From assembly GCA_964016885.1 (NCBI GenBank), contig OZ024741.1, forward strand, positions 69,192,001-69,256,000: DNA of 64,000 nucleotides, given 5' to 3'. The DNA is from Eledone cirrhosa (lineage: Eukaryota). Positions 1 to 44,524 of the stretch are shown here, in pieces. Within the stretch, counting starts at the first letter, position 1; every line of letters begins with the position of its first letter. A model generated the notes under the pieces. It had not been told where the DNA came from. It saw only the letters and a program-made list of their open reading frames with translations, and did no database searches. The position numbers were made by a program, and so were the translations under genes.

Positions 1-252
1 TTGTTTCCTTGAGCAAGGCACTTTATTTCACATTGCTCCAGTTTACTCAGCTGTAGAAATGAGATGATAGGGACGAGGGTCCCTATCATTCCACTGCAAA
101 GTGGTCGTGGAGGTGCCACAGCAAAAAAAGCACCCAGCACTCACTGAAAATGAGGTTGGTGTTAGGAAGGGCATCCAGCTGTAGAAATCAAGCCAGAATC
201 AGTTCCCGTCCCACCCTTGCAAGCAGGGAAAAGGCGGACGTAAAATGATGAT
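1..252 (+). mobile_element. CORE-like tRNA-derived SINE with RTE-derived 3' tail (5' end outside window)
   Basis: CCTTGAGCAAGGCACTTTATTTCACATTGCTCCAGTTTACTCAGCTGTAGAAATGAG central domain is followed by sequence shared with the RTE 3' UTR at 18559-18814 and a (GAT)n tail. Near-identical to the full copy at 29748-30091. Confidence 0.85.
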
Positions 253-7601: not shown

Positions 7602-7608
<7 letters not shown>

Positions 7609-7821: not shown

Positions 7822-8535
7822 TATAAATATAGAGTTATAAACTCAAACAGTCTTTTACAATTAAATAACTCAAAGAAAGAAATATTTCTGAGCCGTGAAA
7901 TACAAGTTAATATAAATTAATATATATGATAAACACTAATACAATTATATATGTGTTTGTATTGTAAATGACCAAGTTAGCTAGATTGAAAAATACTAAT
8001 TATATTAATACAGTTTGCCTGTCTCGATTTAAAATAATAAATCAATAAAAACAAACCCATATTGGCAATAGCCGTGGTACTTGGACAAATTTAAATTTCA
8101 AAATCCAAACCTGTTCCGTAGATAAGTTTAAACTTCAAAATCCAAATAAGTTTCGATAATTGAAAAAGGGAAAAAATACCATCTTCAGTTCTCATCAGCA
8201 AGTACCCAGAAAATTGGTATGTTTCACCTCAAAATATTTAAGAAGACTGATCGACGCACATGGTTTCTCAGTGTCTAGCTACCGCATACTCGTGCTGCTA
8301 GAAATAACAGCCGTTTTTATGGGACTAAAACTTGTATTTCACGGCTCAGAAATATTTCTTTCTTTGAGCTATTTAATTGTAAAAGACTGTTTGAGTTTAT
8401 AACTCTATATTTATAGTATTACGGCTCCTTTTGTTGAGCTAATTTTAGTCCCATAAAAGCGGCTGTTATTTCTAGCAGCACGAGTATGCGGTAGCTAAAC
8501 ACTGAGAAACCATGTGCGTCGATCAGTCTTCTTAA
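7822..8535 (-). mobile_element. PLE-like remnant with interleaved inverted repeats
   Basis: 7822-7908 is the inverse of about 8329-8415; 8238-8330 is the inverse of 8442-8535. Minus-strand CTGAAGATGGTA...TATCGAAA motif at 8188-8151. Confidence 0.6.
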
Positions 8536-16686: not shown

Positions 16687-16822
16687 TATAAAACGAAGGA
16701 AGTGTGGTAAGGAACCAGGTGGACCATAATGCACCAGAGTACTTGATACTATGGGTAGTGGAGTGGGTAATAGGGCCCCGACGGCTGTCTATCGAAACGG
16801 CTGGAGTCCTGACTCTTTCACT
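16687..16822. mobile_element. Family F fold-back element, copy 2 (internally deleted)
   Basis: AAAACGAAGGAAGTGTGGTAAGGAACCAGGTGGACCATAATGCACCAGAGTAC...CCCCGACGGC...GAAACGGC. Confidence 0.7.
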
Positions 16823-17124
16823 ATGCACACCCACACACATACACAGAGACAGACAGAGAGAGTTGATGGAATCTATGGAGTAGGAATACCTGGGATGAGG
16901 TGATAAAAGTTGACCTTGCTCAATTGCACCTCTCAAAGGTGATGACAGAGGATTGAGCTCATTGCTGTTATGCAGTAATACAGAAGACTTGCCATCCCAT
17001 GCTTCCATTACTTTAGTTCAGGTTTTCCTTGGCCTTCCTCTGCTGCAGCTTCCTTCCATTTAGATCACTTGGTATTTCTTCACTCCAGTGGTGAACCAGC
17101 AACGTCTATGTATATATATATATA

Positions 17125-18814
17125 TAACAGAAAGAGTTATAGCACAGTTGATTAGGGACCGGGTGAAACTAGATGAGATGCAATTTGGGTTTGTACCAGG
17201 AAGAGGCACCACTGATGCCCTCTTCCTTGTGAGGCAGTTACAGGAAAAGTACCTAGCTAAAAGTAAGCCACTCTACCTGGCATTCATCGATCTTGAGAAA
17301 GCCTTTGACAGAGTTACACGTGCTGTAATCTGGTGGGCTCTTAGAAAACTAGGAGTAGATGAATGGCTTGTGAAAGCTGTACAAGCCATGTATAGGGGAG
17401 CAGTCAGCAAAGTTAGGATTAGCAATGAGTATAGCGAGGAATTTAGCGTACAGGTTGGGGTCCACCAGGGCTCTGTTCTTAGCCCTCTCCGGTTCATCAT
17501 AGTCCTGCAGGCAATAACGGAGGAGTTTAAGACCGGATGCCCATGGGAACTCCTGTATGCTGATGACCTCGCACTCATAGCTGAATCTATGGTAGAACTA
17601 GAGAATAAATTCCAAACTTGGAAGCAGGGACTAGAGAGAAAGGGTCTCAAAGTCAACATGACAAAGACTAAGGTCCTTATAAGTAGACGAGAAAACAGAA
17701 CTCAGATCCCCTCAGGGAAATGGCCTTGCTCAGTATGTAGGAAAGGTGTAGGTAGGAACTCCATGCTCTGTCCCAAATGCAAACAATGGGTACACAAGAG
17801 ATGTAGCGGGATCTCAGGAAGCTTAATTAAGAATGTAGGGTTCACATGCAGCAGCTGTGCTGAGACAGCAAGAGGCAAACAGCCACAGGAAACAAGTACC
17901 ACCAATCTCTGGGAGGGCCCTGTAGAAACAGTAGACAGCTTCTGCTACCTAGGTGACCGAATTAGCAACGGAGGTGGGTGTTCAGAAAGTACAATAACTA
18001 GGGTAAGAACGGGATGGAAGAAGTTTAGGGAACTACTACCACTGCTAGCTGCAAAAGGCTTCTCCCTCAAAATGAAAGGCAGACTGTATGATGTGTGTAT
18101 CCGAACAGCAATGTTACATGGTAGTGAGACCTGGGCGCTGAAGGTGGAAGACTTACGTAAATTAGAGAGAAACGAAGCCTGCATGCTCCAATGGATGTGT
18201 AACAGTAATATACGTGAACGACAAAGCATAAAGGAATTGAGAGAGACTGAGCATAAGAGGAATCAAATGCTGTGTGCAGGAGAGGCGGTTGCGTTGGTAT
18301 GGACATGTGATGCGTATGAAGGATGACAGCTGCATAAAAAGGTGCAGAGCACTAGAAGTCGATGGAAACCGCGGAGTGGGGAGACCCAAGATGACCTAGG
18401 ATGAGGTGATAAAAGCCGACCTTACCCAATTACACCTCTCAAAGGCGATGACACACGACCATGACTTCTGGCGTCACGCAGTAATACAGAGTACCTGACC
18501 TCCCATGGGTACAATCTGAAGCATATAGACAATATGCCCCCACACCCCCCACTGAAAGGTGGTCGTGGAGGTGCCACTGCAAAAAAGCACCCAGCCTACA
18601 CTGTAAAGTGGACGTGTAGGCCCCACGAAAAAGCACCCAACACTCACTGTAAATGAGGTTGGTGTTAGGAAGGGCATCCAGCTGTAGAAATCAAGCCAAA
18701 TCAGTTCCTGTATGAGCAAGGCATGGTCAGCCGACCAGACACTGCCCACAACAGGACAACCCGTCTAACCCATGTTAGCGTGGAAGAACGGACGTAAAAC
18801 GGTGATGATGATGA
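17125..18814 (+). mobile_element. RTE-clade LINE, 5'-truncated (RT C-half plus 3' UTR), frameshifted
   Basis: QFGF..GRGTTDA, FIDLEKAFD, GVHQGSVLSP and LLYADD RT motifs; Cys-rich insert; RLRWYGHV in a shifted frame; (GAT)n tail; 5' junction lies in (TA)n. Confidence 0.97.
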
Positions 18815-18849
18815 GTCTTTCATTAGAAATATGGTAATGAAAGGGTTAA
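18815..18849 (+). mobile_element. Right end of a family B MITE abutting the RTE tail
   Basis: GTCTTTCATTAGAAATATGGTAATGAAAGGG|TTAA matches the family B right terminus. Confidence 0.75.
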
Positions 18850-20300
18850 TGGGCACCATAGATTTGTACGAGATTACTATGTAAATAAGCAGGTCCATGA
18901 GACTGTGAGAAATAGCAACCAATCTCCCTCAATCTTAAAGAAAAGAAAGAAATATAGGATAATATATATATATATATATATCTAGGCACACTATGCCAGG
19001 TCATAGTTGGAACACTTTTGATCATAGGTGAACTTAATGAAAGCTCGCCAAGGGTTATACAACATTGACAACAAACAGATCATGTTAAAAAACACCACTC
19101 GTATGAATTTAGCATATCTGATGTTCATCTTCACTGAACAATTTTTAAATTAACAAACTAAAAAGCACTTCAGCCATTCCATTTCTGAATTGTGAAGGAA
19201 GTTGGCTTGGTGTGAGAAGGGGTAGGGAGCCAGGAAGATAGCAAGAGAAAAGGGGGAGAGGAGAAAGACAGAGAGGGAAAGAGAGAGAGAAAATAGAGAG
19301 AGAGAATAGAGAGAGAGAGAGAGAAAGACATGCCATGTTTCTATGCGTACATACATCATCATCGTTTAATGTCTGATGATGTATGTACGCATAGAAACAT
19401 GTGCACTCATGTATGCGTGTGTGTGTCCATGTGTGCTTACCCATGAAAATGTCTGTGCACATGCATAGATACATGCGCTAAAATGCATGTAAAGTTGTGC
19501 ATACATGAGTGTCTTTATGCATGTTGCATACACACATGGTAAAAATGCCTCTGTGTATATGCACATTTGTCAATACATATGTTTGTGTATGTGTGTATGC
19601 ACATGTACAAGAACATGTGTCAGTTTGTATGTATTTGTGCATGAATGTCTATGTTCATTAATTCATGAATCTACATGACAGCATGTATGCACATATGCAT
19701 AAAGTAGAAATCCTACTTGAATTTGTGTTCTTTGAAATGAATGAAAAAAATTATTCATTAAAAAAATTTTTTTTAATTGTAAATGACAATGAAATTAAAT
19801 TTTGAAAAAAACTTTTTAATAGAAGTCAAAAGAAAAAAAAATTGTTTTTTAAAAAAGAAATTTAACAAACAAAAATAAAATTTACAGTAAACAGGATTTA
19901 CAACGAAAAATTATTGTTCCTCTAATTGGAACACTAATCAAAAATAATAAAAACAAAAAATAAACTATATAAAAAATAGTTTTTAATTGTTTTCCAAGTA
20001 ACAGATGATGATGATGGGGCAGTGAAGCTACAGTACAATGAGATGTATTCTTAACATGACAGTTTAGTGTGCTATTACAGAATCTAGCATTAACCCTTTT
20101 GATACCAAACTGTCTGAAAGTGGCCTAGTTTCTATGATACAAAACAGGATTTTATGTAAGAACCTTTGCTAAGTTATGTTCCAAACACCAACTTAATCTA
20201 CTGTCGGCAACAAATTGCAACAAAAGAGTAATCTCCCCTTAATACATAATGCAGGTGTCAAGGGAAACAATTCATAAAAACACTTCAGCGCCCTAAAGAT

Positions 20301-20520
20301 TAATAATGGTTTCTACTTTAGACACAAGGCCCAACATTTAGGGGAAAGAAAAGTCAATTAAATTAACCCCAGTGTGTAATTGGTACTTTCTTTTATCAAC
20401 CTTGTAAGGATAAAAGGCAAAGCTAACTTTGGTGTGATTTGAACTCAGAACGTAAAGAGCCGTAACTATGCCACAAAGCAGGGTGTCCAACGTTCTATCA
20501 ATACTGCCAACCCCACCACC
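20301..20520 (-). mobile_element. S1 SINE nested in a family B MITE (20090-20643)
   Basis: S1 sequence flanked by MITE B left (TTAACCCTTTTGATACC) and right (AGAAATATGGCAACAAAAGGATTAA) parts. Confidence 0.8.
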
Positions 20521-21154
20521 TTAAACCCTAACTTAATGAAAAAGTCCTATCATTAAATCTCACAAAATTCTTAAGTATTTTCAAAATCATTCAAAATTCA
20601 TAAACAGGGTCTTTTATTAGAAATATGGCAACAAAAGGATTAAAAGAGTCAACTAGGCAGCCTTTACATGGTAACACTAGTTGTTAGAAATAGCAGGAAA
20701 ATCTTCCTCAAATCTCACTCTAATGTCCTTAAAAAGGAAGGACATGTTGAACCCTGTAGCTTTAGATATAAAGATAGACAGGATGGTCATGACAGGAATA
20801 CTTTTGATCATAGGTCTGTCATACCAGGGTTAATCTGGGGCTAATCAACAACACTAAAGTTACATGATACGTTCAATCTGTTCAGTAAAAAATGATAATC
20901 AAAAAGACATGTAGTCAACCTTGACCATCTTTTATTCAAACATGGCATATCTAGGACTACATTATCTAATATGTCCTTCCTTTTTAAAGATAGTCAGGTA
21001 TAATTTACTGAAATCAGCTTTGTTCCGACTTGCAAAGGAGTGAACTCTGCCAGGTTTAAAATGCCAAGGATAGCGCCCTACAACTCCATCAAAAGTTATG
21101 ACCCCTTTACCTATTATTTTAAACAATAGATGTTTCTGTCAACCAAATTTCTTT

Positions 21155-21385
21155 CCCAAAGCATTAAGCAAGATTGTCAAATACTGGGGCCTGACCAACT
21201 GCTTCCTCTTTTCACTGGTCTCTGTCGAGACCTCTGGCATCCTTAGTCCTCACACTGCTGATTTCCTCTGTAAAGTTGGAAAACAATGGCCCACTTGAGG
21301 AGGGAAGCCTATGAGGTGGCTGTTGCAGTGGGTGTCTTTGGCTATTCTCCATGGTTAATGCTTTTGCTGTTTTGTCCATGCAGCA
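21155..21385 (+). mobile_element. Degenerate CRE-type RLE retrotransposon fragment
   Basis: ALSKIVKYWGLTNCFLFSLVSVETSGILSPHTADFLCKVG...WLLQWVSLAILHG matches the K..KY..L...F.P..VET.G...FL...WL.Q..SLAI.RGNA pattern. Confidence 0.7.
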
Positions 21386-21630
21386 TGGTTGAAGCTCAGA
21401 ATAAGGTGTAGTATCTGCCCCTCCCTCTCTCTATTTCTTTTACCACTTGATCCTTCTTTTATTTTTCTCCTTTTCATTTTCTTTTTTCTTTTTTCTTCTT
21501 CCTTTTCTGTTCCCTTTAGTATTATTTTATTCTTATCAGTTACTGCTCAATTATTTTTATATAATGACAATGGCCTTTCATGACATTGTGAGATCTTGTA
21601 TATTGAATAAACTCTGAAGTAAAGCATTAA

Positions 21631-21842
21631 CCCTTTAGCATTTAAACTGGCTGTATCCAGCCATAATTCTGTCACATTTTTCTGTTCAAACCGGCTGTAA
21701 CTGGCTTCTCATACTTATGTTAAAGTATTGTTCTCAAAATAAATAATATCAAAATCTTATAGCTTTGATATTGTGTGAGATAGTTATGTAAGATAAAGCC
21801 TTTACCACAAAAATAAAATAGTATATATAAATGCAAAAAGGT
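21631..21842. mobile_element. piggyBac-like MITE family A
   Basis: TTAA|CCCTTTAGCATT left end, decayed right end; homologous to 37804-38017. Confidence 0.75.
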
Positions 21843-21849
21843 AAAGTCA

Positions 21850-21960
21850 ATTTGAGGCCATAGTAGGAGGCACTTGCCCAATGTTCCATGCAGTAGTGTT
21901 GAACCCTAAACCATACAGTTGCAAAGTAAACTCCTTAACTATACAGCCATGTCTGTGCCT
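21850..21960 (-). mobile_element. tRNA-derived SINE 5' part (family S4)
   Basis: Minus strand reads AGGCACAGACATGGCTGTATAGTTAAGGAGTTTACTTTGCAACTGTATGG...TTGGGCAAGTGCC; same family as the host of the MITE at 37804. Confidence 0.65.
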
Positions 21961-22807
21961 ATATAATTATGTATCAAACAATATATTAGATAAATAAATA
22001 AATATAATTCTTTTCGCAACAAAAAATTCTGAATCCACAAAATAAAAATACAAATTACAAATTAGATAATCGTAAAAGAAGTGACTTTACAAAAAAATAA
22101 TGTTTACATATATTTTATTTCTTCAATCTCTTTCATCTTATAATCATTCAGAGATTTTTTTCCCAATTTCTTTTGTAAAAAATTAGATTTACATTATATA
22201 TGTGTGTGTCTTGTGTGTGTGTTTTGTGTGTGCTTATGTGTATGTGTGTATATGTGCATGTATGTGTGTGTGCATGTTTGTTTTACGTATTATATTTTTT
22301 TAATTATTATTTATCTTATTGTTTTGCTACAAATTCTCATGGATCACTTCAGCTTAAAAATCCAAGATCTGTGGATTGGCAGCTTGACTGAGATAGTTTT
22401 TGGCAGTACCAGAACCAGTCAAACAAATAAGCAAGATAATAAATAAAAATAAAAAACAAAACTAGTCAAGCCTTTACATTTCAGAGTTGAGTGAAAAGTG
22501 GAGGTGGAATAGTGGGTGGATTGGAGGTGTTGGGGTAGGGAGAGTGATTTTCAAACTTAAAACATGAAGCACTGCTTTTATCCAAAATCTGACAAGCAAA
22601 AGAGCTAGAAGAGGTTCATGGTAAAGTAGGTTGGTTGGAATTATCTTAACCCTTTTGATACCAACCCACCGAAACAACAATTCAATGATGAAAAACCTCT
22701 TGTTTTAAAGTATTCATATTTAACCCTTTAATGTTCAAACCGGTCAGAATTCTCTACCTCTTTTTGTTGAAACTAGCTGTAACTGGTTGCTCAAACTGAT
22801 GTTAAGG

Positions 22808-22921
22808 TATTGTTTGGGAGTGAAGGAAGCACCAATCACAACAGTGTTGCCAACAGCCATACAAACAGTTTCTCTGCGTCCCCATCGCTTTGGAGACCTT
22901 ACTTTTGGGATTGCCCTTGTA
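22808..22921 (-). mobile_element. Mariner 5' TIR plus leader fragment
   Basis: Minus strand starts TA|CAAGGGCAATCCCAAAAGTAAGGTCTCC; shares about 55 bp with 23449-23504, upstream of the transposase. Confidence 0.65.
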
Positions 22922-23059
22922 CTATTATATTTTCATGGTAAAAGCTTTACCTCGCATAATTATCTCACATAATATCGAATCTATGAGATTTTGAAAGTAT
23001 TTATTTTGAGAACAATACCGGGAGACTGTCAATTTCCAATGAGACAATCGCAATTTTTC

Positions 23060-23504
23060 CGTTAAAATCCTGTGGATGGTGCTTTGGGAAACCTCAGGAA
23101 CCAAATGCAGAGAGCATCCAGAGTGATCTGCCGATCTTTACGCATGTTTTCCTCAACCTTTCCGACTGTCTCATCGGAAATTGACGGTCTCCCGCTCCTT
23201 TGTTCGTCGTGAATTTCAGTATAATCGGCTGTAAACTCTACACCACTTGCGAACGTTTTTGACATCCATGCATGACTGTCCATACACTTCCATCAATTGG
23301 CGATGCATTTCAATCGGTTCAACGGCTTTTACGTTGAAAAACCGAATAACTGCGCGAACTTCGCACTTGGTGGTAGCGTTCAACGGGAGCTCCATTCTCA
23401 ATGGCTGCCAAGCCAAGATTGAGCATCCCAGTGAAGCGCGCGCATGCTTGTTTGGGAGTGAAGGATGCACCAATCACAACAGTGTTGCCAACAGCTGTAC
23501 GAAC
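23060..23504 (-). pseudogene. Mariner transposase N-terminal (HTH) fragment, frameshifted
   Basis: MELPLNATTKCEVRAVIRFF...IEMHRQLMEVYGQSCMDVKNVRKWCR / EF...IHDEQRSGRPS...VEENMRKDRQIT; ATG at 23395. Confidence 0.9.
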
Positions 23505-24216
23505 TGAGTTGGACCACAGACGTGATAGGGAGAAAAGAGCAAAGGGAGAAAATGAACGAGACAAGATCACACAAACATTATTTCACCTCATCAGCTCTCA
23601 GACCAGCTGTAGTTTCACAAAATTTAATGTTATGGAAGAATATCTTTTTTAAGCTATGTACTAAACTCCACCTTAAGAATGTAGTTAGTTATTTTACTAA
23701 AACTCTTCAAATTGTCCATTATTTTTTAAATCATTAGAAATATGGTTATAAAATAGTTAAATAATATTATATATAAGCTGCTAGTTCTATTTTTAAAATG
23801 TTCAACTGCCACCATATCCTAATTTACACGTGCTTTCATATTTACTATTAACTTTATAACTTCTAAATTTAATGGAAAAACTGTGTGTGTGTGTGGGGGG
23901 GGGGGGGGGGTGTTAATGGACCTAGCACACCTATCATGAAAATGAGAGGTGTGGTTTCAAATCCCATGCATGGTAATGCCCATTTCTTTGATTATGGGGA
24001 TTCATATGCCCTAATAGACAATTTTCTATAGTCAATTTACAGTGAAGGCTTCTAATTATATATACATACATATATATATATATAATTGTTCTGAATTTCT
24101 CTATATGCCAGTGTTTTGTACTTTGGATTTGTTAGCAATAAATAATGCTTATTATAGAAATGCGGTACTCTTGCCTTGGCCTATAAACAAATGTTTCTCT
24201 TCCTCCTTGTTGATTT

Positions 24217-24325
24217 CTTTCTGATGAAGTACTATAATTGTGACAGAAAGCATACAATTGAGCATTGGACTATGCAGTCAGCACGTGTAGACGGCTATGT
24301 AATTGTACTGAAACATATGTTAAAG
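24217..24325 (+). ncRNA. Type-I hammerhead ribozyme motif with long helix-II insert
   Basis: CTTT/AAAG helix I, CTGATGA 24221-24227, AGTAC/GTACT helix II base, GAAA 24310-24313, palindromic ACATATGT helix III, then U. Confidence 0.6.
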
Positions 24326-25799
24326 CTTGAACAGTCAATAAATTTCTCCTTCTGATCACTTCTTTTTACCTAGTTTTACCTGATTTACCTGGTACCATAT
24401 ATATCTGAATGTGTGTGTACATGTATATATATTTTTTTTCCATTATTTTAACTCAGCTTCACTTTCATTTTTAATAAATATTAATTTCAAATCATATATC
24501 CAAAACACAACTATTTCATCCAATGAGCGAACTGGACATTTCCATTAGGGTCGTCTAGTTTCCTGAAACCATTGGTAATGGAATAATTATATTGTGTTGT
24601 TTATTATGTAATTAAATAGCTCTACACAATACATAGAGCACTGTTCTTTCCTTTACCTTTTCTACAGAAATACTTAACATAAAATGTGTGTGCGTGTGTT
24701 ACCTTCACTTTTCCATACTGCATGAGTTTGATATGATGTTTTGAGACAATGTTTTACAACCAGATGCCCTAAATGATGCCAATACTTTTAGTCATCTCAT
24801 CATACATGTAGAGATACAGTATACCTATTTTAAAAAAAACACACACACAATATATGTGTGTACACATGTGTAAACACATACCAGTACATTTCTATATTAA
24901 AAATGCTTGTTTCTTAGTATTTATGGTATACAGAAAAATATGGTTGTATATGTATGCATGCACACATGCATTATACACATACTGGATTAACCTTCACTCC
25001 ATTACAACTAATAGTTGCACCATAATCTACTAAAAGATAATCTACCAACAGCATAAGATTGTTAGATCTTATATTTAAGTCAGTATGCCTTCTTAGATAT
25101 ATTTTTGTAAGAGTATCATAGCAATCATGTGTACAACTATATTTGCATGTGTATATGTGTGCATATATATTTATGTGCATATAATTCTACATACATAATT
25201 GTATATCATTGCATATACAAGCATATCGCTATAATTGTGTGTGTGTATGATTGCATATATATGTTTGTCAGTATAGTTGTATATATATATATATATATAT
25301 ATATATGTGCAAGTGTAACTTGGAGTACATATTTTCTCTGTATTTACATATATGCTTGCAATATGCAAATAGGCATGTAGTTATGCTAAAATGTACATAC
25401 ATTTGTGGATACACCGATATGTGTGTCTGATTTATGTCCATGACATTAAATACTGCTGATGATGGTGATGATGGTGACTGTGTGTTACGCAATTAAGTAT
25501 TACCCGCACAAAATAAAAACTTCACACACAAATTTATGTACATGATGTGTTATGCAAGAAAATATCACCCTCACAAAATAAAGACTATATACACACACAC
25601 ACACATTCATATACATGACATTAAATGATGATGATGATCATCATCATGATCATCATCATGATTCAACGTGTTATGCAAGTATCCACCTCACAAAATAAAG
25701 ACTATATATTTATATATACACCCACATGTATGTTTTTATATATATTATGTGTTGTAATGTATGCGTATGCAATCAAAAAGCACCTTCACAAAGCTAAAA

Positions 25800-25868
<69 letters not shown>

Positions 25869-26099
25869 TTCCAGTGAATGTGAGAACCCTTTGTATAAGT
25901 GAAAATATACCTTAGTAAGGTTACTTTGATCACACTTCCGTTGATCTTCTTCAAAGAACTTGCCTCTTATTCAGCTGTAAATTTAGTGTGAATATATATA
26001 TATAGTATACATGAGTATGTGCATATATGTGTGTGTGTCTGTATATCATCATCATCATCACCATCATTTAACGTCCATTTTCCACGCTACATATATACA

Positions 26100-26560
26100 T
26101 GTGTGTGTGTGTGTGTGTAAATATAGATATAATGTCTGTGTGTGGTGATATGTGTGTGTGGTGATGTGTGTGTGTGGTGATGTGCGTGTGTGGTGATGTG
26201 CGTGTGTGTGTGTGGTGCGTGTGCCTGGTGATGTGTATATGTGGTGATGTGTGTCTGTGGTGATGTGTGTGTGTGTGTGTGTGGTGATGTGTGTCTGTGG
26301 TGATGTGTGTCTGTGGTGGTGTGTGTGTGATGTGTGTGTGGTGATGTGCGTGTGTGTGGTGATGTGCGTGTGTGTGGTGATGTGTGTGTGTGTGGTGATG
26401 TGCGTGTGTGTGTGGTGATTATGTGTGTTGTGATGTGTGTGTGTGTGGTGATTATGTGTGTTGTGATGTGTGTGGTGGTGGTGGTGTGTGTGTGTGGTGA
26501 TGTGTGTGTGTGTGGTGGTGGTGTGTGTGTGTGTGGTGATGTGTGGTGACGTGGTGATGC
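26100..26560. repeat. (GT)n / GGTGAT compound microsatellite
   Basis: Visible directly. Confidence 0.95.
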
Positions 26561-29237
26561 AAGCATGCATATCTTAACATTTAATTTCAAAGAAAATATA
26601 GTGGAAATTTATTGAACTATTCATGTCAATGAGATAGCTTTGAAAAATCAAAATACATTGGAATGTCAGGTGGTAAGTATTTAGTGGGCCAAGGTCAAGA
26701 CTTAGTCTTGGTCTCAATACTAGTTTCTGTTCTTAGTTGAAACCAATTCACAAGAATGCTTTACTTGAAACACCATACATGTTATGGAGGTCACACATGC
26801 ATTCATGATCATAGAGAAGCTCAAACATTTTATGCTGTTCCTTTCAGAGTGTTTGCTTGACTGACATTCTTTTGAAATCTGGTGAATAAAGACAGTTGCC
26901 ATAGCTTTTGCAGAATCTTCTAGAATTTTCAGTTTAAAAAAGAGAAATCATTAGTCTATGTATCATTGAAGGTTAGCCCTATTGATAAATGACCCCCATG
27001 AGGCTGCTTCTGATTCTATGATAGAAAACTTCCAGGTTTTAATTATTTTCTTCTTTACCTTTACAACCCTCTCAGGAATAAATGGACAGAGTTCTCAGAC
27101 TCACCTTCCAGAGAGTTCTATCAGAAGTAACTGTCTTCAAGACCATCTGAACTTAGGGATGTTATTCAACCACCTAGTTCATGGTCTACTGCTGGATCTT
27201 CTGTTGGTTGGCTTTGCCTATAAAATCTGTCCAGTGATTCTTTCCTCAGAAATGTTAACATTATGTTCATAGTACTGAAGCTGTAATCTCTCAATTCAGA
27301 AATGTAGCAGCTCTACCTGGAACAACTCCTTGATTTCCAAGCTATGCACCCTATCAAGTAACATTACTCCAAAGACTCTTTGGAGGACCCTCATTTTGGT
27401 CATTTGTATTCTTTCAGTCATGTCCATAGGCAAAGGTATTTAAATTAAAGCCTTCTACCATAATTTTATGTAAGAAACCTTTGTTCAGTTGTGCCTGAAA
27501 CAATAATTTAGTAATGGTTTTTATTTTATGCACAAGACAAGGGAGGGTTACTGGCGAAGAGGAGATATTGCCAGTTTGGAATAAACTGTAGTTTTGGAAT
27601 GCCATGTAGGAGAGGAACATAAAAATTATTAACACTCTCATTCAGTGCCTGAGCATTCTTGACATAAGGAACCATTTTAGGTACAAGGCAAGAGAGTGCT
27701 ACCAGAGGGGAGGGGACATTACCAATTTGGAATAAAGTCTATAGGCATGTTATGTAAGTAGGGCCAGCTAGAGATGCAAGGAGAGTGACGTAAATATTAT
27801 TAAAGCTCTTGTTCAGTGTCTGAGCATTCCTGAGATACAGAGCCATATCAAACAGCTATTATCGCATAATGGATGGAACTAGCTGTCAGCCAAGTCCCTG
27901 CAATTTGAGAAAAGTGATTAAATTGACTCCACTGGTTGGCTGATACTTTCATGAACCTGAGAAGGATAAGTAAATGAGAGAGGATTTGAGCTCAGAACAT
28001 AAGCTAGAACAAATATCAAAAAGTATGTCTGACACTAAAAATTCTGCCAATCCACCATCATGAAACATTAGCTTATGAACAAAAAGATTAGTTTGTTTCA
28101 CTAACTTGATAAAAATGTTTGCTTAATTTTAGAATTAACTGAAAGACATAGCTTATTCAAACCACCCGAAACCATCCTTGGTTATATGAGCTGTTTGTTT
28201 TAAAGTATTTTATATTTACCTAAAAAAACCTATTGTTTTATGTAAGAACGTTCAAGTTATGTTCCAAACATCAGCTTAATAATGACAAATTTAGTTATAA
28301 TATTAATTCCTTCCAAAATCTTGATATTTTCAAAATTAATTGAAAAAACATAGGCAGTGTTCCATTAGAAATATGGCAATAAAATGGTTAGAGGCTGCAA
28401 ATTAAAGAGTTATTAGATCTATATGCATGCATGGTCCCATAACTCCCGGGGGAGACATAGTGGTGTCATGTTAACATACAATATTTCTAGGTCATTTTTA
28501 AAACCTGGTGGAGCCCATCTCCTCTCCAGATCTGAATACAGCAGATTTCTTCCTGAGAAAGATAGAGAGTGAGAAAGAGATATAGAGGAAGAAGCAACCC
28601 CAGTACTAGACTGGTACTTTTTTATCAACTTCAAATAGCAAAGTTAACCCTGGAGGGATGTGAAAGAGGGCAGATAACTGAAACACATACTACCATGCAT
28701 TCTATCCAATTTTCTAATGACTGCCAATTTGCCCCCATAGATCGATATAAAAACTGTTAAACAAAGGGTTAGGAAGACTGTTCAGCTATGTGACACTTCC
28801 CAAGTGTTGGTGCCATGATAAAATGGACTCGGTGGAGCATGAGATCGTATGTTAGACCCCTGGCCCATCTGGCAAGCAGAGGCTCTGCTTGAGTACTGAT
28901 TAGTCTGTGACAATACATCCAGCTCTTGCTAGCAAGCAAAACAGACGTTAAACAACAATGATAATGATGACATTTCTGCAAATCCACATACATCTGCACA
29001 CACATGCACAAACACACACACAATGATGTGTACTGTTACAAATTTGAATATATATATTCATGATTGTATGGTACTACAAAGCTCGATACATCCACACACC
29101 CTGACAAATCCTTACATACACACATATATACTTGCATATACATATCTTTTGAAATTCCAACATCTGCATGTGCACACCTAAATGCACAACTCTAAAAATG
29201 CATACATTCTCTCACATTCACACATATACACACATAT

Positions 29238-29637
29238 ATCATCATCATCATCAACGTTTAGCGTCCGTGTTCCACGCTTGCATGGGTTTGGACGGGGGTT
29301 TTCCCACTTGAGGCAAGAGTGGTTGTCTTGCTCGCATAGGACTGTCTGGCGGGTTTTCTACAGCTGGATGCCCTTCCTAACACCAACCACATTTACAGTG
29401 TGGGGCTGGGAGGTTTTTACCGTGTTGCCTACACGGCCACATTACAGCGTGGAGTCTGGCGGGTTTTCTACAGCTGGATGCCCTTCCTAACACCAACCAC
29501 ATTTACAGTGTGGGCCTGGGAGGTTTTTACCGTGTTGCCTACACGGCCACATTTACAGCGTGGACTGTGTGTTTTTTTGTTGAGACACCTACACGATCTC
29601 ATTTGTTTAGGCCTGGATGTTGTGGCACCAACATAAC
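29238..29637 (-). mobile_element. RTE-3'UTR-derived short element with internal 110-bp tandem duplication
   Basis: (CAT)n tail and CAGCTGGATGCCCTTCCTAACACCAACC motif; 29345-29454 is duplicated at about 29455-29565; sister copy at 31121-31408. Confidence 0.8.
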
Positions 29638-29747
29638 TATATACATATGTATATATATATACATATGTATATATATATATATATACATATGTATATATAT
29701 ATATACATATACATATGTATATATATATATACATATACATATGTATA

Positions 29748-30091
29748 TCATCATTTCATCATCATTTCATTTTACGTCCGCTTTTCCCTGCTAGCAAGGG
29801 TGGGACGGGAACTGATTCTGGCTTGATTTCTACAGCTGGATGCCCTTCCTAACACCAACCTCATTTACAGTGAGTGCTGGGTGCTTTTTTGCCGTGGCAC
29901 CTCCACGACCACTTTGCAGTGGAATGATATGGACCCCAGTCCTATCATCTCATTTCTACAGCTGAGTAAACTGGAGCAATGTGAAATAAAGTGTCTTGCT
30001 CAAGGAAACAACACATCACCCGGTCTGAGAATTGAACTCACAACCTTTCGATTGCAAGGCCAATGCTCTAACCACTAAGCCATGTGCCTCC
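29748..30091 (-). mobile_element. Full-length CORE-like tRNA SINE with RTE tail (family S2)
   Basis: Minus strand has A-box TGGCTTAGTGG, B-box GAGTTCAATTC, CORE-like domain, RTE 3' UTR and ATG-repeat tail; sits in a TA/TACATA microsatellite. Confidence 0.9.
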
Positions 30092-30381
30092 ATATATATA
30101 TATACATATACATATACATATGTATATATACATATACATATGTATATATACATATACATATGTATATATACATATACATATGTATATACATATACATATG
30201 TATATATATATACATATACATATGTATATGTATATACATATACATATGTATATATATATACATATACATATGTATATATATATACATATACATATGTATA
30301 TATATATACATATACATATGTATATATACATATACATATGTATATATATATATACATATACATATGTATATATACATATAC

Positions 30382-30410
<29 letters not shown>
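30092..30410. repeat. TA/TACATA compound microsatellite
   Basis: Visible directly; a similar tract occurs at 29638-29747. Confidence 0.95.
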
Positions 30411-30414
<4 letters not shown>

Positions 30415-31120
30415 CACACACAAATTGTTACACCATATAACACAACTCTTAATAAAATGCAGTCATGCATTCATTGAAAGCAAAACCATAAAAAATAAAT
30501 AAGGAAAATAATAATAATAATATCAATGATGATGATGATGATAACTGCTAAATGATAAATATAAAACATGAAAAATAGAAATAATTGTAAAATTGAATAA
30601 CCATATTTATGCACAAAATTGTACATGGTATGAATACACCCGCCCACCATCACCACCATCACCATCACCATCATCAAACACAGTAGGACTAACTCACCAC
30701 AATGAAATACATGCATGATTTTACATGAGAAAAAAAGAGTGAAACAGTGGTAATCATTGTGATGATGATGATGTTGGTGGCAAAAAAACTGCATGTCTAT
30801 GCATTTATATAATATGAATGCATGATCATTTTTCAGATGCATTCATTAATATGCATGCACCTGCATGAGACCCCACATGCTATTCACACACACTCACACA
30901 TACATACACATGCATGCACACACACATGCTTCCTAGATTGTGACCATCTACCTAACTAGCCAACTAACGCTATAATCAAATGTACATATACATGCACATA
31001 CATGAATACACATGCACACAAACATGTACAAATACATGCACACATTTTGATTACATGCTGATCAATAAACACACAGACTTATGAAATTTCAGAAAAAAAA
31101 AAAAAAAATATATATATATA

Positions 31121-31408
31121 TCATCATCATCATCATCGTTTAACGTCCATCTTCCACGCTTGCATGGGTTTGGACAGGAATTTTCCCACTTGAGGCAAGA
31201 TTGGTTGTCTTGCTCGTATAGGACTGTCTGGTGGGTTTTCTACGGCTGGATGCCCTTCTTAACACCAACCACGTTTACAGTGTGGACTGGGAGGTTTTTA
31301 CCGTGTTACCTACATGGCCACATTACAGTGTGGACTGTGTGTTTTTTTGTCGTGACACCTACACGACCTCATCTATTTCGGACTGGATGTTGTGGTACCA
31401 ACATAACT
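31121..31408 (-). mobile_element. RTE-3'UTR-derived short element, copy 2
   Basis: Colinear with 29238-29637 without the duplication; same outer boundary. Confidence 0.8.
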
Positions 31409-31468
31409 TTACATCGAAATATATATATATGTATGTATACATATGTACAGTCACAGATGCTCAAATAT

Positions 31469-31555
<87 letters not shown>

Positions 31556-31597
31556 CACAAATGTTAAAATATGCACACATAAATATATATACATATA

Positions 31598-31698
31598 GAG
31601 GGTGTCTCCAAAAAATGTATACACACTTCAACAGCATTCTAATAAATATTGACTGTACAGGTAAGCAAATGGTGTATACATTTTTGGGGGACACCCTG
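31598..31698. mobile_element. Tc1/mariner-type MITE, 101 bp
   Basis: TA|GAGGGTGTCTCCAAAAAATGTATACAC ... GTGTATACATTTTTGGGGGACACCCTG|TA. Confidence 0.85.
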
Positions 31699-31757
<59 letters not shown>

Positions 31758-33254
31758 ACAGATGCTCAAACATGCACACATGAATAAATGTGCAGTCACT
31801 GATGCTCAACACAAGTACACTTTCATTCACATATACACATATATGACACATAGAAACACACATGCACACACACATGCACATGTATACGCACATGTGCACA
31901 CACACACAAATGCATACACACACACACAAATGCATACACACAAAGGCAAAAGCAGAAAACGGTAACAAACGGGAGTTACCATTAAAAGGAACAATATTTC
32001 TAAAAGTCATACCCTTCCCAACAATTCCATTCCAGCCTCCACCATTCCTTTCCCACCTTCATATCCACATAAGAGGACTGCCACCATTCCATTCCCACCT
32101 GCTAGACTCACATGCATATACCCCACCCTCCTCTCCATCCTCACACAGACACATGTATGCAACTCCAAGCATCAGCCAGTTACACAATGTGCAGCTTAAT
32201 GCTTGCTGCCAGTTGATTCCTACCATACAACATAATCCCAAACATGCAACGTGTTAATCTGACTCCCTGCAACAATACAATAAGCCTTATTAAATGATTT
32301 AAGGTTTCGGATTAAGGGGAGTATAGTGGAGGGGTGAAATAAAAAGATAGCAGCAACGGCAACAACAACAACAGCAACGGCAACAAAACAATTAACAACA
32401 ACAGGCGCAACAGCAACAAAACAGTAACAGCAACAATGGAAATAACAAAACAACAAAAATAGCAACAATAGACACAACTACAACAAACACAAAAACAAAA
32501 AATAGCAACAACACACAAAATAACATCAACACACAACAAAAATAGCAACAACAACAGATACAACCAAAATAGTAATAACAGCAACATTGCAATAACAGAT
32601 ACAACACCAAAGCAATAACAAAAACGAACAGTTCCAACAACAACAACAAGAGCAGCAGTAAAAAACAGAAGCACAGCTATAAGAACAACACAATGAAGCA
32701 ACAAGAGAGCCTCAATGTAGTGACTCAGTCCACTATAATTAGCATTGACACCTCTCTCAAATTACTCCCCTCTTAAGAAAGAACACCTTGGCCAGTGTAG
32801 GTTTAAATAGAAGCTGCAATATTCCTAGAGTACCTTTCATTGTAGGTACAATCATGGTTGATGATCTGGAGCAACAGCAACAACAGTAGCAGCAGCAATA
32901 ACAGTAGCAGCAGCAACAACAGTAGCAGCAGCAATAACAGTAGCAGCAGCAATAACAAAGACAAAATTATGTACAAGAACAGACACAGCTATAAACTAGG
33001 AACTACAACAACAACAACAGCAGCAGCAATAACATACAAACTGATTTACAAGAACAGCCATAACTATAAACTAAGAACAAACAGCAGCAACAGCAGTAAT
33101 AATAAGTAAATAAACAAGAGGAGTAGTCACTGCCACAACAACAACATAAACAGTAACAAAAGCAATAATTCCAATTATAGAAACAAAAATAAAAAAAAAA
33201 ACACCAAAAACAACAACCACAGCAACAATACAGCAGAAATCATAATCTAATAAT

Positions 33255-33342
33255 TGTTTCTACTTTTGGCACAAGGCCAGCAATTACCCAGTGTATTACT
33301 GGTACTTTATTTTATTGACCCCGTAGGATGAAAGGCAAAGTT
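33255..33342 (-). mobile_element. 5'-truncated S1 SINE with 18-bp TSD
   Basis: TSD AAATCATAATCTAATAAT at 33237-33254 and 33343-33360. Confidence 0.9.
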
Positions 33343-33715
33343 AAATCATAATCTAATAATGTTCTTCTTAGTGTTAATGTAGTACCATATACAGATATGA
33401 AATTAGCCAAAAAAGAATGGTTATTGGACTATACTTAGAACTACCAGCATACCATGTATTAGGAACAAGTATATAAGTAGCAGGAATGGAGTATCAATAT
33501 AATATGTTTATTCACATGTGATGTGTGTTCTGTGATCAAATCAACTCAAGCTATGATCAGTAGTGATCGGGCTCAACTCTGAAATCGATAGCTCATCAGA
33601 CTTGTGGAGTCTCACATAGATAGCCAGATCCCCATATTAGCATTGAGTGCTCAAACTGGTGAACCAACAGTAACCAAACATACTCTATAACATATATATA
33701 TATATGTATATATAT

Positions 33716-33808
33716 ATAACAAAGAAAGTGTGGTAAGGAACCAGGTGGACAATAACACACCAGAGTACGGCCAGAGCTCAGCCGTTGGGGGTCCTGGCGC
33801 TTTTCCTA
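33716..33808. mobile_element. Family F fold-back element, copy 3
   Basis: The family F left part is joined directly to the inverted arm GAGCTCAGCCGTTGGGGGTC...TTTTCC; lies between (TA)n tracts. Confidence 0.7.
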
Positions 33809-33818
33809 TATATATATA

Positions 33819-36165
33819 TCATCATCCTCATCACCGTTTTATGTCCGTTCTTTCACGCTAGCATGGGTTAGACGGGTTGTCCTGTTGTGGGCAGTGTCTG
33901 GTCGGCTGACCATGCCTTGCTCATACAGGAGCTGATTTGGCTTGATTTCTACAGCTGGATGCCCTTCCTAACACCAACCTCATTTACAGTGAGTGCTGGG
34001 TGCTTTTTCGTGGTGCCTACACGCCCACTTTACAGTGTGGGCTGGGTGCTTTTTTGCAGTGGCACCTCCACGACCACCTTTCAGTGGAGGGTGTGGGGGC
34101 ATATTGTCTATATGCTTCAGATTGTACCCATGGGAGGTCAGGTACTCTGTATTACTGCGTGACGCCAGAGGTCATGGTCGTGTGTCATCGCCTTTGAGAG
34201 GTGTAATTGGGTAAGGTCGGCTTTTATCACCTCATCCAAGGTCATCTTGGGTTTCCCCACTCCGCGGTTTCCATCGACTTCTAGTGCTCTTTATGCAGCT
34301 GTCATCCTTCATACGCATCACATGTCCATACCAACGCTACCGCCTCTCCTGCACACACCATTTGATTCCTCTTATTCTCAGTCTCTCTCAATTCATTTAT
34401 GCTTTGTCGTTCGCGTATATTACTACGTGTACACATCCACTGGAGCATGCAGGCTTCGTTTCTCTCTAATCTACGTAAGTCTTCCACCTTCAGTGCCCAG
34501 GTCTCATTACCATGCAACATCGCTGTTCGGATACACACATCATACAGTCTGCCTTTCATTTTGAGGGAGAAGCCTTTTGCAGCTAGCAGTGGTAGTAGTT
34601 CCCTAAACTTCTTCCATCCCGTTCTTACCCTAGTTATTGTACTTTCTGAACACCCACCTCCGCTGCTAATTCGGTCACCTAGGTAGCAGAAGCTGTCTAC
34701 TGTTTCTACAGGGCCCTCCCAGAGATTGGTGGTACTTGTTTCCTGTGGCTGTTTGCTGCTCGCTGTCTCAGCACAGCTGCTGCATGTGAATCCTACATTC
34801 TTAATTAAGCTTCCTAAGATCCCGCTACATCTCTTGTGTATCCATTGTTTGCATTTGGGGCAGAGAATGGAGTTCCTACCTACACCTTTCCTACATACTG
34901 AGCAAGGCCATTTCCCTGAGGGGATCTGGGTTCTGTCTTCTCGTCTACTTATAAGGACCTTAGTCTTTGTCATGTTGACTTTGAGACCCTTTCTTTCTAG
35001 TCCCTGCTTCCAAGTTTGGAATTTATTCTCTAGTTCTACCATAGATTCAGCTATGAGTGCGAGGTCATCAGCATACAGGAGTTCCCATGGGTATCCGGTC
35101 TTAAACTCCTCTGTTATTGCCTGCAGGACTATGATGAACAGGAGAGGGCTAAGAACAGAGCCCTGGTGGAACCCAACCTGTACGCTAAATTCCTCGCTAT
35201 ACTCATTGCTAATCCTAACTTTGCTGACTGCTCCCCTATACATGGCTTGTACCGCTTTCACAAGCCATTCATCTACTAGTTTTCTAAGAGCCCACCAGAT
35301 TACAGCACGTGGAACTCTGTCAAAGGCTTTCTCAAGATCGATGAATGCCAGGTAGAGTGGCTTACTTTTAGCCAGGTACTTTTCCTGTAACTGCCTCACA
35401 AGGAAGAGGGCATCAGTGGTGCCTCTTCCTGGTACAAACCCAAATTGCATCTCGTCTATTTTCACCCGGTCCCTAATCAGCTGTGCTATAACTCTTTCTG
35501 TTACTTTCATGACCTGGTCCATCAACTTTATACCTCTATAGTTTCCTCTATCTTGTGCATCGCCTTTACCTTTGTAGCAGTTGACAATGATGCTACTGCA
35601 CCAATCTTTTGGTATGGCACCTTCTAGTATTACCTGGTTAACGATACGTGTGGTTATAGTATGACCTACAGACCCAGATGCCTTCAACATCTCGGCAGCT
35701 ATACCTGATGGACCGGTTGCCTTCCCCATCTTCATATCTTTGATTGCCTTACTTACTACGCTGCTGCTGACTTGTACTGCTGGTCCCTCTATAGGGTCTA
35801 TTTGGGGTAGGGTCTCTTCTTCCCATGCATTCTCCTCATTTAGTAATCTATCATAATGACTCTTCCATGCATCTTTCTTCTCAGCACTTGTGAGGATACA
35901 CTTCTCTCCAATGACATCACAACTATCTCTGACACACTGCCTCGCAATCTTGAATACCTCCTGTTTCTGGTCCTCACGTTGCAAAACATGCTTGAATTTT
36001 CTATCCTCTGCTTCCCTCCTAGCTAAGTATACTTGTCGCCTAGCTTCCCTCTTGGTCTCTATGTAATTATACCCTGCTCCCCCCGTTCTTCCATTCTTTC
36101 CATGCCTGTCTCTTGGCCTTAACTGCTTCATCTACCTTATTGTTCCACCACCAAGTCACTCTGCC
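33819..36165 (-). mobile_element. RTE-clade LINE, 5'-truncated (linker, RT, 3' UTR); ORF remnant 34302-36131
   Basis: KATGPSGI, YKGKGD...NYRGIKL, QFGF, DLEKAFD, QGSVLSP, YADD; no endonuclease domain; nearly identical to 17125-18814 over 33819-35503. Confidence 0.97.
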
Positions 36166-36363
36166 TATGATTTTCAATTAATTTTGAAAATAATCAATTT
36201 GTAGGAATTTAGTAAAATAACTTTCTTGTTATCAAGCTGATGCTTGGAACATTACATAAAATCATAATTGTTTCTACAATGAAAGGTTTATAGATAAATA
36301 CGAACACTTAAAATAAGCAGCTTTTTAACATAGACAGTTCAGGGGCCTTGGTATCAAAAGAGC
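36166..36363 (-). mobile_element. Left part of a family B MITE abutting the RTE 5' end
   Basis: Minus strand reads CTCTTTTGATACCAAG...CAAAATTAATTGAAAATCATAGGCA, then RTE sequence begins. Confidence 0.75.
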
Positions 36364-36508
36364 TGTGATTCATGTGTAGTACATAATACATTGGGAATAT
36401 GCTGATACAAGAGGAAACAAACAAACAAATCACTAAAGGAACCTGTATGTGGTTGCTTGATATGCTAGAAATAACAGCAAATTTCTGTCAAATAACAACC
36501 TAACTATA

Positions 36509-36708
36509 TGAGAGTTGGCTGAAAAGTTTATAGACTGACCAAGATACTCTCATGGAATGACCAAATGAGCTTTATTTTTCAACACTGTCCCTGGAAATGG
36601 AAAGAAACAATGCAGTTATTAATAAGAGTTGAAATTAATGCATGCAAGATTTCATAGCTCTAGCATCACTCCTTCATAGTTAGCCTATGAATTTTTCAGC
36701 ACACCCAT
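36509..36708. mobile_element. Mariner-derived MITE nested in a family S3 repeat
   Basis: TA|TGAGAGTTGGCTGAAAAGTTTATAGACT ... AGCCTATGAATTTTTCAGCACACCCATG|TA; S3 continues on both sides. Confidence 0.8.
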
Positions 36709-43162: not shown

Positions 43163-43574
43163 TTAAAGAATCCACAGAATAAATGTAGATGGTTGTATAA
43201 TTGTTGTATATTTGATTAATTGTATATTCATCACTAGCTAACAAGAGTATGTTGCAGATTATTTTGAAACTAGGACTTGTCATAAACTGATTGTTCACCT
43301 ATCCAGGGGGACTAATTTATCTCATTCACTTATGGTCTCTGAGAATCAACTGGAGTTAAGCTGTGACCTTTTCAGAGACATAAATAGAAAGATAGATAGA
43401 TAGAAAGCTAGAGAGAGATAGAAATAAAGGTAGGTAGGTAGATAGATTGATAGCTAGATAGAAAGATAGGTTGGGAGAGAGATTCAGGATGTCTCTAAAA
43501 GACATTTCCTTTTTTTTCATCTCTGTTAGTGATGATGTTGCTAACAGTTGGATAATTCATGCTCTCTATCATAA

Positions 43575-44518
43575 TCACCAGTAATCATCACTATTATCAT
43601 CATCATCACCATCACCATCACCATCACCACCACCATCACCACCACCATCACCACCACCATCACCACCACCATCACCACCACCACCACCACCACCACCATC
43701 ACCACCACCACCATCGCCATCATCACCATCATCACGATCATCACCATCATCACCACCACCATCATCATCATCACCATCATCATCACCATCATCACCACCA
43801 CCACCACCACCACCACCACCACCACCACCATCACCACCATCACCAGAACCATCGCCAACATCGCCACCACCACCACCATCACCATCACCACCACCACCAC
43901 CACCACCACCACCGCCACCACCACCATCACCACCATCACCACCACCATCATCATCATAACAACCATCATCACCACCACCATCACCACCACCACCATCACC
44001 ACCATCACCACCACCATCACCATTGCCATCATCACCATCATCACCACCATCATCACCATCGCCATCATCACCATCACCACCACCATCATCACTACCATCG
44101 CCATCATCACCACCACCATCACCATCATCACCACCACCACCATCACCACCACCACCATCACCACCATCACCAGAACCATCGCCAACATCGCCACCACCAT
44201 CACCACCACCACCACCACCACCATCACCACCGCCACCACCACCACCACCATCACCATCACCACCATCATCATCATAACAACCATCATCACCACCACCATC
44301 ACCACCATCACCACCACCATTGCCATCATCACCATCACCACCACCATCACCACCACCATCATCACTACCATCGCCATCATCACCACCACCATCACCACCA
44401 CCACCACCACCACCACCACCACCACTATCACCACCATCACCATCACCACCACCACTATCACCACCACCACCATCACCATCACCACCACCACTATCATCAT
44501 CACTATCATCACCACAAC
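43575..44518. repeat. (CAC/CAT)n tract with internal duplication of about 300 bp
   Basis: Marker CCAGAACCATCGCCAACATCGCC occurs at about 43842 and 44170. Confidence 0.95.
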
Positions 44519-44524
44519 TCCTGA

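What the first reader, a model, noticed from the sequence alone, without database searches (positions are those of the whole stretch)
17125..36363. Swapped flanks indicate a 15-kb inversion between two inverted RTE LINEs
Seen: a single family B MITE appears split. Its left part (…AATTAATTGAAAATCATAGGCA, minus strand, 36166-36363) abuts the 5' end of RTE copy 2. Its right part (GTCTTTCATTAGAAATATGG…GGG|TTAA, plus strand, 18815-18849) abuts the 3' end of RTE copy 1. Joined through the shared GAGT they give CATAGGCAGAGTCTTTCATTAGAAATATGG, matching uninterrupted copies (28349 CATAGGCAGTGTTCCATTAGAAATATGG; 41068 TATAAGCATTGTCTTTCATTAGAAATATGG). Reciprocally, the 5' end of copy 1 and the 3' end of copy 2 both sit in (TA)n. 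Inference: recombination between the inverted copies flipped 18815-33818, or the assembler mis-oriented it. Caveat: older SINEs inside the segment show the same minus-strand bias as those outside.
Basis: partly seen in the sequence, partly recalled or inferred. Interest (0 to 1): 0.75.

Follow-up and report, generated by a model that had tools for sequence, protein, structure and literature searches.

The report
Inversion between two chimeric LINE copies
Two oppositely oriented copies of a jumping gene, 15 kb apart, have swapped their flanking DNA and are patchworks of each other, so the DNA between them was likely flipped long ago by recombination between the copies, a well-known kind of rearrangement with no gene found inside.

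Summary
Two 5'-truncated RTE-like LINE copies (+17126-18814, -33819-36162; 96.5% alike) face each other. One repeat (family B) is split between the 5' flank of copy 2 and the 3' flank of copy 1, joining within one base of the family sequence (1,489 intact genomic matches); the other two ends both sit in (TA)n. New evidence: the copies are reciprocal chimeras of two subfamilies (copy 2 is type I at its 5' end, type II at its 3' end; copy 1 starts as type II; switch p=0.017) and share variants that two exact genome-wide searches found nowhere else. So these two loci exchanged sequence. Each has since gathered about 1% own changes, about the age of the younger copy, so the exchange is old and not a polishing artefact. 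Best reading: a 15.0-kb inversion by ectopic crossover (likely at 17379-17967) with patchy gene conversion. The 'GAGT' duplication is not supported (the family has T there). An assembler flip is unlikely but untested: no read spans a copy. This is a new case of retrotransposon-recombination inversion, as described for Galileo and L1; no gene was found inside.

The parts
17111..17126 (.). (TA)n run, outer flank A; TA(A) microhomology with the 5' end of copy 1
   Evidence: sequence
17126..18814 (+). RTE-like LINE copy 1, 5'-truncated, RT + PHD, 399-aa open frame, (GAT)n tail; type II at its 5' end, then I/II mosaic
17379..17967 (+). likely crossover interval in copy 1 (35252-34664 in copy 2); holds a tract 17576-17919 where both copies are type I
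18070..18699 (+). zone where both copies carry mostly type II alleles and 7 shared rare variants (18094, 18190, 18461, 18496, 18515, 18555, 18578)
18815..18849 (+). right part of the split family B repeat, ending GGG|TTAA (inner flank B)
18815..33818 (.). inferred inverted interval, 15,004 bp; repeats and microsatellites, no Pfam hit in 57 open frames
   Evidence: inference from flanks
33719..33806 (+). short TA-flanked repeat related to the hairpin element at 7604-7787
33807..33819 (.). (TA)n run, inner flank C, next to the 3' tail of copy 2
   Evidence: sequence
33819..36162 (-). RTE-like LINE copy 2, 5'-truncated, 609-aa open frame; type I at the first 12 of 12 diagnostic sites, type II at the last 7 of 7
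36161..36363 (-). left part of the split family B repeat (outer flank D); 2-base AG overlap with the LINE 5' end; far terminus degenerate

Best explanation
Two inverted LINE copies with swapped flanks and reciprocal subfamily mosaics bound a 15-kb segment that was likely inverted in the germ line by a homologous crossover between them. Shown: the flank swap, the two-subfamily mosaic, the variants shared only by these copies. Inferred: an older type II copy sat in a (TA)n run (flanks A and C); a younger type I copy landed 15 kb away, in opposite orientation, inside a family B repeat (flanks D and B); the two paired, crossed over at about 17379-17967 and exchanged patches of sequence by gene conversion; the interval flipped; this happened early in the life of the younger copy and exchange then stopped.
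For: Split repeat rejoins within one base of the family sequence. Both copies break the family's 5'/3' flank concordance, reciprocally. Of 28 sites that separate subfamilies I and II, copy 2 is I at the first 12 and II at the last 7; copy 1 is II at its first 8; where they differ the pattern is (II,I) at 4 sites up to 17378 and (I,II) at 3 sites from 18203. With 13 informative sites the best single switch lies after 17378, 11 of 13 fit, permutation p=0.017; 17636 and 17968 in copy 1 are alleles of the type I lineage. The nearest of 82 other copies differs from copy 1 at 9 and from copy 2 at 6 of about 22 sites. Two exact patterns with shared rare variants match only these two places in 3.0 Gb. 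Unshared changes: 10 in 688 bp (1.45%) in the both-type-I tract, against 7 in 659 bp (1.06%) for the whole age of copy 2's unpaired 5' part; longest identical run 141 bp is what random scatter gives (median 138). No gap within 85 kb. Same three hallmarks as Galileo inversion 2z3 (PMC2775673) and L1-mediated inversions (PMC2603318).
Against: No read or contig spans a copy with both flanks, and no uninverted or empty allele was seen. Sites 18110 and 18116 go against the single switch; 18203 lies beside an insertion, 18215 is a CpG, and some type II copies carry copy 1's alleles there. Other copies are also partly mosaic (L026, L005, L019, L006, L003). The family sample is 89 of at least 7,605 candidates and missed a whole subfamily until (17679A, first counted as private, has 2,431 matches). 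Locally, family B copies inside (3 of 3 besides the split half) and SINE copies inside (3 of 3) point the same way as most neighbours outside; all 8 outside family B calls from -24 to +69 kb are + except flank D. The A-C join is only TA-to-TA and cannot be checked.
Confidence: 0.72

Rival explanations
1. Insertion-coupled exchange: the break and nascent cDNA made while the younger copy was inserting engaged the resident inverted copy 15 kb away, giving one long heteroduplex, patchy repair and the crossover in a single event.
For: Post-exchange divergence (0.9-1.5%) equals the age of the younger copy (1.06%) within error, and there is no sign of later conversion. Alleles of the two parents alternate within 5-13 bp (18461/18466, 18190/18203). 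cDNA pairing with nearby homologous DNA has been proposed for L1 (10.1101/2024.08.27.596794, passage).
Against: Confidence intervals are wide (0.7-2.7% against 0.4-2.2%), so an ordinary crossover some time after insertion fits as well; fine alternation may be homoplasy.
Confidence: 0.15
2. Assembly artefact: the two copies exchanged patches by conversion only, and the assembler flipped the interval at an identical stretch.
For: SNP patterns cannot tell a real crossover from a flip inside the repeat. Identical runs of 141, 96 and 93 bp exist. Lee et al. excluded one candidate locus as an assembly error (PMC2603318). Local repeat orientations look more uniform as if unflipped relative to the far flanks.
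Against: The overlap is only 1.7 kb at 96.5% identity, the sequence is gap-free for 85 kb to the left and 140 kb to the right and holds multi-kb satellite arrays, which points to long reads (inference). The mosaic itself is old, so the two loci did recombine in vivo.
Confidence: 0.08
3. Two synchronous insertions whose ends were joined crosswise (as for L1 in tumours), or a staggered-break inversion that duplicated one copy.
For: Both give inverted copies with swapped flanks (10.1101/2024.08.27.596794 and 10.1101/2024.12.14.628481, passages; staggered breaks as cited in PMC2775673). Shared rare variants would fit a common source.
Against: The 5' parts come from subfamilies of different age (median 0.97% and 2.26% from their majority), so they are neither one duplicated copy nor one source; end-joining would not give internal mosaics.
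Confidence: 0.03
4. Chance: two independent insertions, each next to a truncated family B repeat; no rearrangement.
For: Family B is abundant; one other copy (L003) has discordant flanks.
Against: Needs complementary halves to within one base, in the right orientation, at two copies that also share unique variants.
Confidence: 0.02

Closest known systems
Retrotransposon recombination-mediated inversion (L1-RMI), human/chimpanzee, PMC2603318 (passages read)
   Same: Two LINEs in opposite orientation, chimeric after the event, unmatched flanks; size typical (human L1-RMI mean 14,294 bp, over half above 10 kb).
   Different: RTE-like LINE without long target duplications, so the swap is read from a split repeat and TA runs; no sister genome; many internal switches instead of one.
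Galileo-generated inversion 2z3 of Drosophila buzzatii, PMC2775673 (passages read)
   Same: Opposite orientation, exchanged flanks, both copies chimeric, crossover placed by diagnostic sites.
   Different: Galileo is a DNA transposon, the inversion is chromosome-scale and has one clean switch within 141 bp; here 15 kb with a conversion patchwork.
Saccharomyces 24-kb flip/flop region, PMC9731477 (abstract read)
   Same: Short segment between inverted repeats that exchange sequence.
   Different: There the repeats are genes kept nearly identical and re-invert continually; here the copies are 3% apart with no sign of recent exchange.
Synchronous L1 insertions giving reciprocal inversions, 10.1101/2024.08.27.596794 (passages read)
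   Same: Retrotransposon copies at both breakpoints of a balanced inversion.
   Different: Somatic, end-joined, same-time insertions; here the parents differ in subfamily and age and are internally recombined.

Membership tests
Retrotransposon recombination-mediated inversion | Two homologous elements in opposite orientation at both breakpoints | tested here: met
Retrotransposon recombination-mediated inversion | Exchanged target-site flanks | tested here: met
   Split family B repeat and TA/TA pair; a true duplicated target sequence is not shown
Retrotransposon recombination-mediated inversion | Both elements chimeric, reciprocally | tested here: met
   (p=0.017; 11 of 13 sites); strong for copy 2, weaker for the 3' half of copy 1
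Retrotransposon recombination-mediated inversion | Ancestral orientation seen in an outgroup or second haplotype | tested here: inconclusive
   No bridging contig in 4 runs laid on the copy 2 junctions; no second haplotype of flank C or A in G000; copy 1 junctions not examined with reads
Retrotransposon recombination-mediated inversion | Orientation confirmed by spanning reads or PCR | not testable with these tools
   no long reads among the 9 runs listed
RTE-clade non-LTR retrotransposon | Reverse transcriptase preceded by an AP endonuclease in one frame | tested here: met
   RVT_1 in both copies; Exo_endo_phos_2 at E 1.4e-5, below the curated cut-off, plus RVT_1 and PHD in relative L020
RTE-clade non-LTR retrotransposon | Single open frame, no ORF1 (as stated in PMC9115989) | tested here: met
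   1,041-aa frame in L115 with no long frame just upstream, one 116-aa frame only; one copy examined
RTE-clade non-LTR retrotransposon | 3' end in a microsatellite-like repeat (PMC6007223) | tested here: met
   (GAT)n tails in the copies listed
RTE-clade non-LTR retrotransposon | RT phylogeny places it in the RTE clade | not tested
   No named references on hand; nearest Atlas clusters are unnamed RVT_1+PHD proteins. The label stays 'RTE-like'
TTAA-type MITE (family B) | TTAA|CCC...GGG|TTAA termini on the split copy | tested here: inconclusive
   Right end intact (18843-18849), left end at 36363 degenerate; other copies show TTAACCCTTTTGATACC at 20090 and 22646

The most novel reading that the evidence does not exclude
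The inversion was made by the insertion itself: the incoming LINE's break and cDNA recombined with a resident inverted copy 15 kb away, forming a heteroduplex over about 1.5 kb that was repaired in short patches on both products. The two copies would then be a fossil of one germ-line event, and discordant-flank, mosaic copies such as L003 would mark a countable class of such events across this genome.
Probability: 0.15. Interest if true: 0.6.

Novelty: new member of a known kind. Interest (0 to 1): 0.33.

Why it matters
Modestly. It shows that a small inversion can be called, placed and roughly dated from one assembly by combining a split host repeat with subfamily painting, in a LINE family that leaves no long target duplications. 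The same two tests could count LINE-driven rearrangements across this 3-Gb genome. No gene effect was found. If the exchange proved to be coupled to insertion, it would be a natural germ-line example of a route so far proposed from cell and tumour data.

Tried and rejected
Unmasked self-BLAST was swamped by satellites. GAGT as target duplication: rejected, family has T at the join and all four letters can come from LINE end, tail and host; non-TA copies show no long duplications apart from 9 bp in L019. 17286A as a private shared variant: rejected, 16 genomic matches, CpG decay in type II. 17679A as private: rejected, 2,431 matches, marker of young subfamily Ia; shared count cut from 8 to 7. 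Ia as parent of copy 2: rejected, 15 against 7 differences in 659 bp. Patchwork as a present-day polishing artefact: rejected, 8 of 51 rare variants shared where about 41-46% would be expected (crude binomial p about 1e-4). Strand bias as a test: no autocorrelation in 344 kb (e.g. SINE 141 of 283 pairs at 10-25 kb; family B 11 of 20). A second, larger inversion that would restore inner orientation: no split element or breakpoint found, dropped. Public contigs on the copy 2 junctions: swamped by paralogues; runs X4 and X5 (one sample) hold 36171-36546 with 0 differences but stop short of the junction; small-share runs X1 and X2 gave no orthologous bridge. Search for a second haplotype in G000: none. 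Genes inside: 0 of 57 open frames of 55 aa or more hit Pfam; short exons are not excluded. Earlier findings: none. Paper searches listed no report of such an event for an RTE family or of this locus; searches cover open-access text only.
Full report
Setting. The window is G000:C2:69192001-69256000 of a 3.0-Gb assembly in 1,796 contigs. It is repeat-rich; the only gap in 344 kb around it lies 85 kb to the left. That the repeat landscape looks octopus-like is recalled, comes from no call and was not tested.

The observation. Two copies of one LINE lie at +17126-18814 and -33819-36162, 96.5% alike over 1,693 bp. Both keep open frames (399 and 609 aa) with RVT_1 and PHD; longer relatives add a weak endonuclease match in a single 1,041-aa frame and end in (GAT)n. 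That is RTE-like architecture; the clade was not tested by tree. Copy 2's 5' end abuts the left part of a family B repeat with a two-base overlap; copy 1's tail abuts the right part. The uninterrupted junction occurs 1,489 times in the genome and 470 contigs of run X1 continue from the left part into the right part. The two remaining ends sit in (TA)n.

Chance. Family B lay within 120 bp of 2 of 53 other 5' flanks and 0 of 32 3' flanks, never at the junction. Among 21 other copies with both ends resolved (25 examined, 4 dropped), a TA run at the 5' end went with one at the 3' end in 9 of 11 (10 with a shorter run), and no TA run at the 5' end went with none in 10 of 10 (Fisher p 3.4e-5 for the 10/1 count). 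Both copies here break the rule, reciprocally.

Chimerism. Sixty-nine other copies (2 loci skipped for short or weak alignment; self-hits and one duplicate left out) define subfamilies I and II at 28 sites. Copy 2 is I at the first 12 sites and II at the last 7, the clearest mosaic of the 71. Copy 1 is II at its first 8. Of the 19 sites in the overlap, 4 are (copy 1 II, copy 2 I), all up to 17378; 3 are (I, II), from 18203; 8 are II in both; 3 are I in both; 1 is mutated. With 13 informative sites the best switch follows 17378, 11 fit, 2 do not (18110, 18116), permutation p=0.017. This is what the flanks predict: the 5' end beside D is type I and so is the last discriminating site before B; the 5' end beside A is type II and so is the 3' end beside C. 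After 20 copies of a third, young subfamily Ia were added, 17636 and 17968 in copy 1 proved to be alleles of the type I lineage, and both copies are type I from 17576 to 17919; the crossover is therefore placed at 17379-17967 with an adjoining conversion tract (inference). No sampled copy has either mosaic: the nearest of 82 differ at 9 and 6 of about 22 sites.

Direct exchange. Seven rare variants are shared. Two exact patterns that hold five of them match only these two places in the genome. Two other candidates failed: one pattern had 16 matches, another 2,431. The sample of 89 copies out of at least 7,605 candidates is biased, so further sub-lineages may exist.

Age. Median distance from the group majority is 0.30% for Ia, 0.97% for I and 2.26% for II. 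Copy 2's unpaired 5' part is 1.06% from type I (7 of 659; 95% interval 0.43-2.19). In the tract where both are type I they have since gathered 1.45% each (10 of 688; 0.70-2.67); copy 1 has 0.94% own changes in 18070-18814 (7 of 745). The longest identical run, 141 bp, is as expected from random scatter of 51 differences (median 138). So the exchange is about as old as the younger copy and did not continue. Mixing at assembly time would leave about 41-46% of rare variants shared; 8 of 51 were (before one was dropped).

The strand-bias caveat. SINE copies inside (3 of 3) and family B copies inside (3 of 3 besides the split half) do point as most neighbours do, and the 8 outside family B calls from -24 to +69 kb are all + except flank D. 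But across 344 kb same-family pairs agree in orientation 0.36-0.63 of the time in bins of 11 or more pairs (SINE 141 of 283 at 10-25 kb), so orientation is not a domain property here. It remains a modest point against.

What could not be shown. None of the 9 runs listed is long-read. Contigs of 4 runs laid on the copy 2 junctions gave no bridge and no empty allele; the copy 1 junctions were not examined with reads. G000 holds no second haplotype of flanks A or C. SNPs cannot separate a real crossover from an assembler flip inside the repeat; the short, 3.5%-diverged overlap in gap-free sequence makes a flip unlikely (inference). No Pfam family was hit by 57 of 57 open frames inside the interval.

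Mechanism. Most likely (0.72): an older type II copy in (TA)n and a younger type I copy in a family B repeat, inverted and 15 kb apart, paired and crossed over with patchy conversion, flipping 18815-33818. Rivals: exchange coupled to the insertion itself (0.15), assembler flip on top of old conversion (0.08), synchronous insertion or staggered-break duplication (0.03), chance (0.02).

Comparison. The three hallmarks are those given for Galileo inversion 2z3 (PMC2775673, passages) and for L1- and Alu-mediated inversions, where human L1 cases average 14,294 bp (PMC2603318, passages). It differs from the yeast flip/flop region (PMC9731477, abstract) in showing no ongoing homogenisation, and from synchronous L1 events (10.1101/2024.08.27.596794, passages; 10.1101/2024.12.14.628481, passages) in having parents of different age and internal mosaics. 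RTE features were taken from PMC9115989 and PMC6007223 (passages). Other papers were seen as search listings only; searches listed no RTE case. No supplements were read. The scan's earlier findings returned nothing.

Verdict. A real feature and a clean new member of a known kind, with an unusually legible conversion patchwork. Interest 0.33.

Noticed in passing
G000:C2:22.34-22.43 Mb, C1:40.30 Mb, C1:254.72 Mb: The inner motif of family B recurs at spacings of 48, about 95 and about 190 bp in long same-strand clusters: the dispersed repeat appears to seed satellite arrays.
   Followed up: no
L003, G000:C28:78254800-78256572: Another copy of the LINE with a TA 5' flank, non-TA 3' flank and a I/II mosaic; neighbours are an 85% copy 4 kb away on the other strand and a 97% 606-bp copy 16 kb away on the same strand. 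Possible second recombinant.
   Followed up: partly
L129-L148 and 2,431 genomic matches: Very young, large LINE subfamily Ia (median 0.30% from its majority, some 0.08%), probably the most recently active lineage.
   Followed up: partly
window 7604-7787, 16691-16774, 33719-33806: TA-flanked repeat family; the copy at 7604-7787 holds a near-perfect 77-bp inverted repeat at its right end.
   Followed up: no
window 43500-44520, 50640-55880, 56296-56967, 57100-64000: Related low-complexity satellite arrays; 56296-56967 is inverted relative to its neighbours.
   Followed up: no
window 29767-30090 (-) and -76..248 (+): Young SINE (96-99% between copies) that shares its 3' part with this LINE, a likely SINE/LINE pair.
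   Followed up: partly
window 7832-7908 and 8329-8405: 77-bp inverted repeat at 98.7% identity, 420 bp apart.
   Followed up: no
L008 and L009, G000:C25:5.41 Mb and 7.22 Mb: Near-identical loci including flanks, in opposite orientation 1.8 Mb apart: inverted segmental duplication or assembly duplicate.
   Followed up: no
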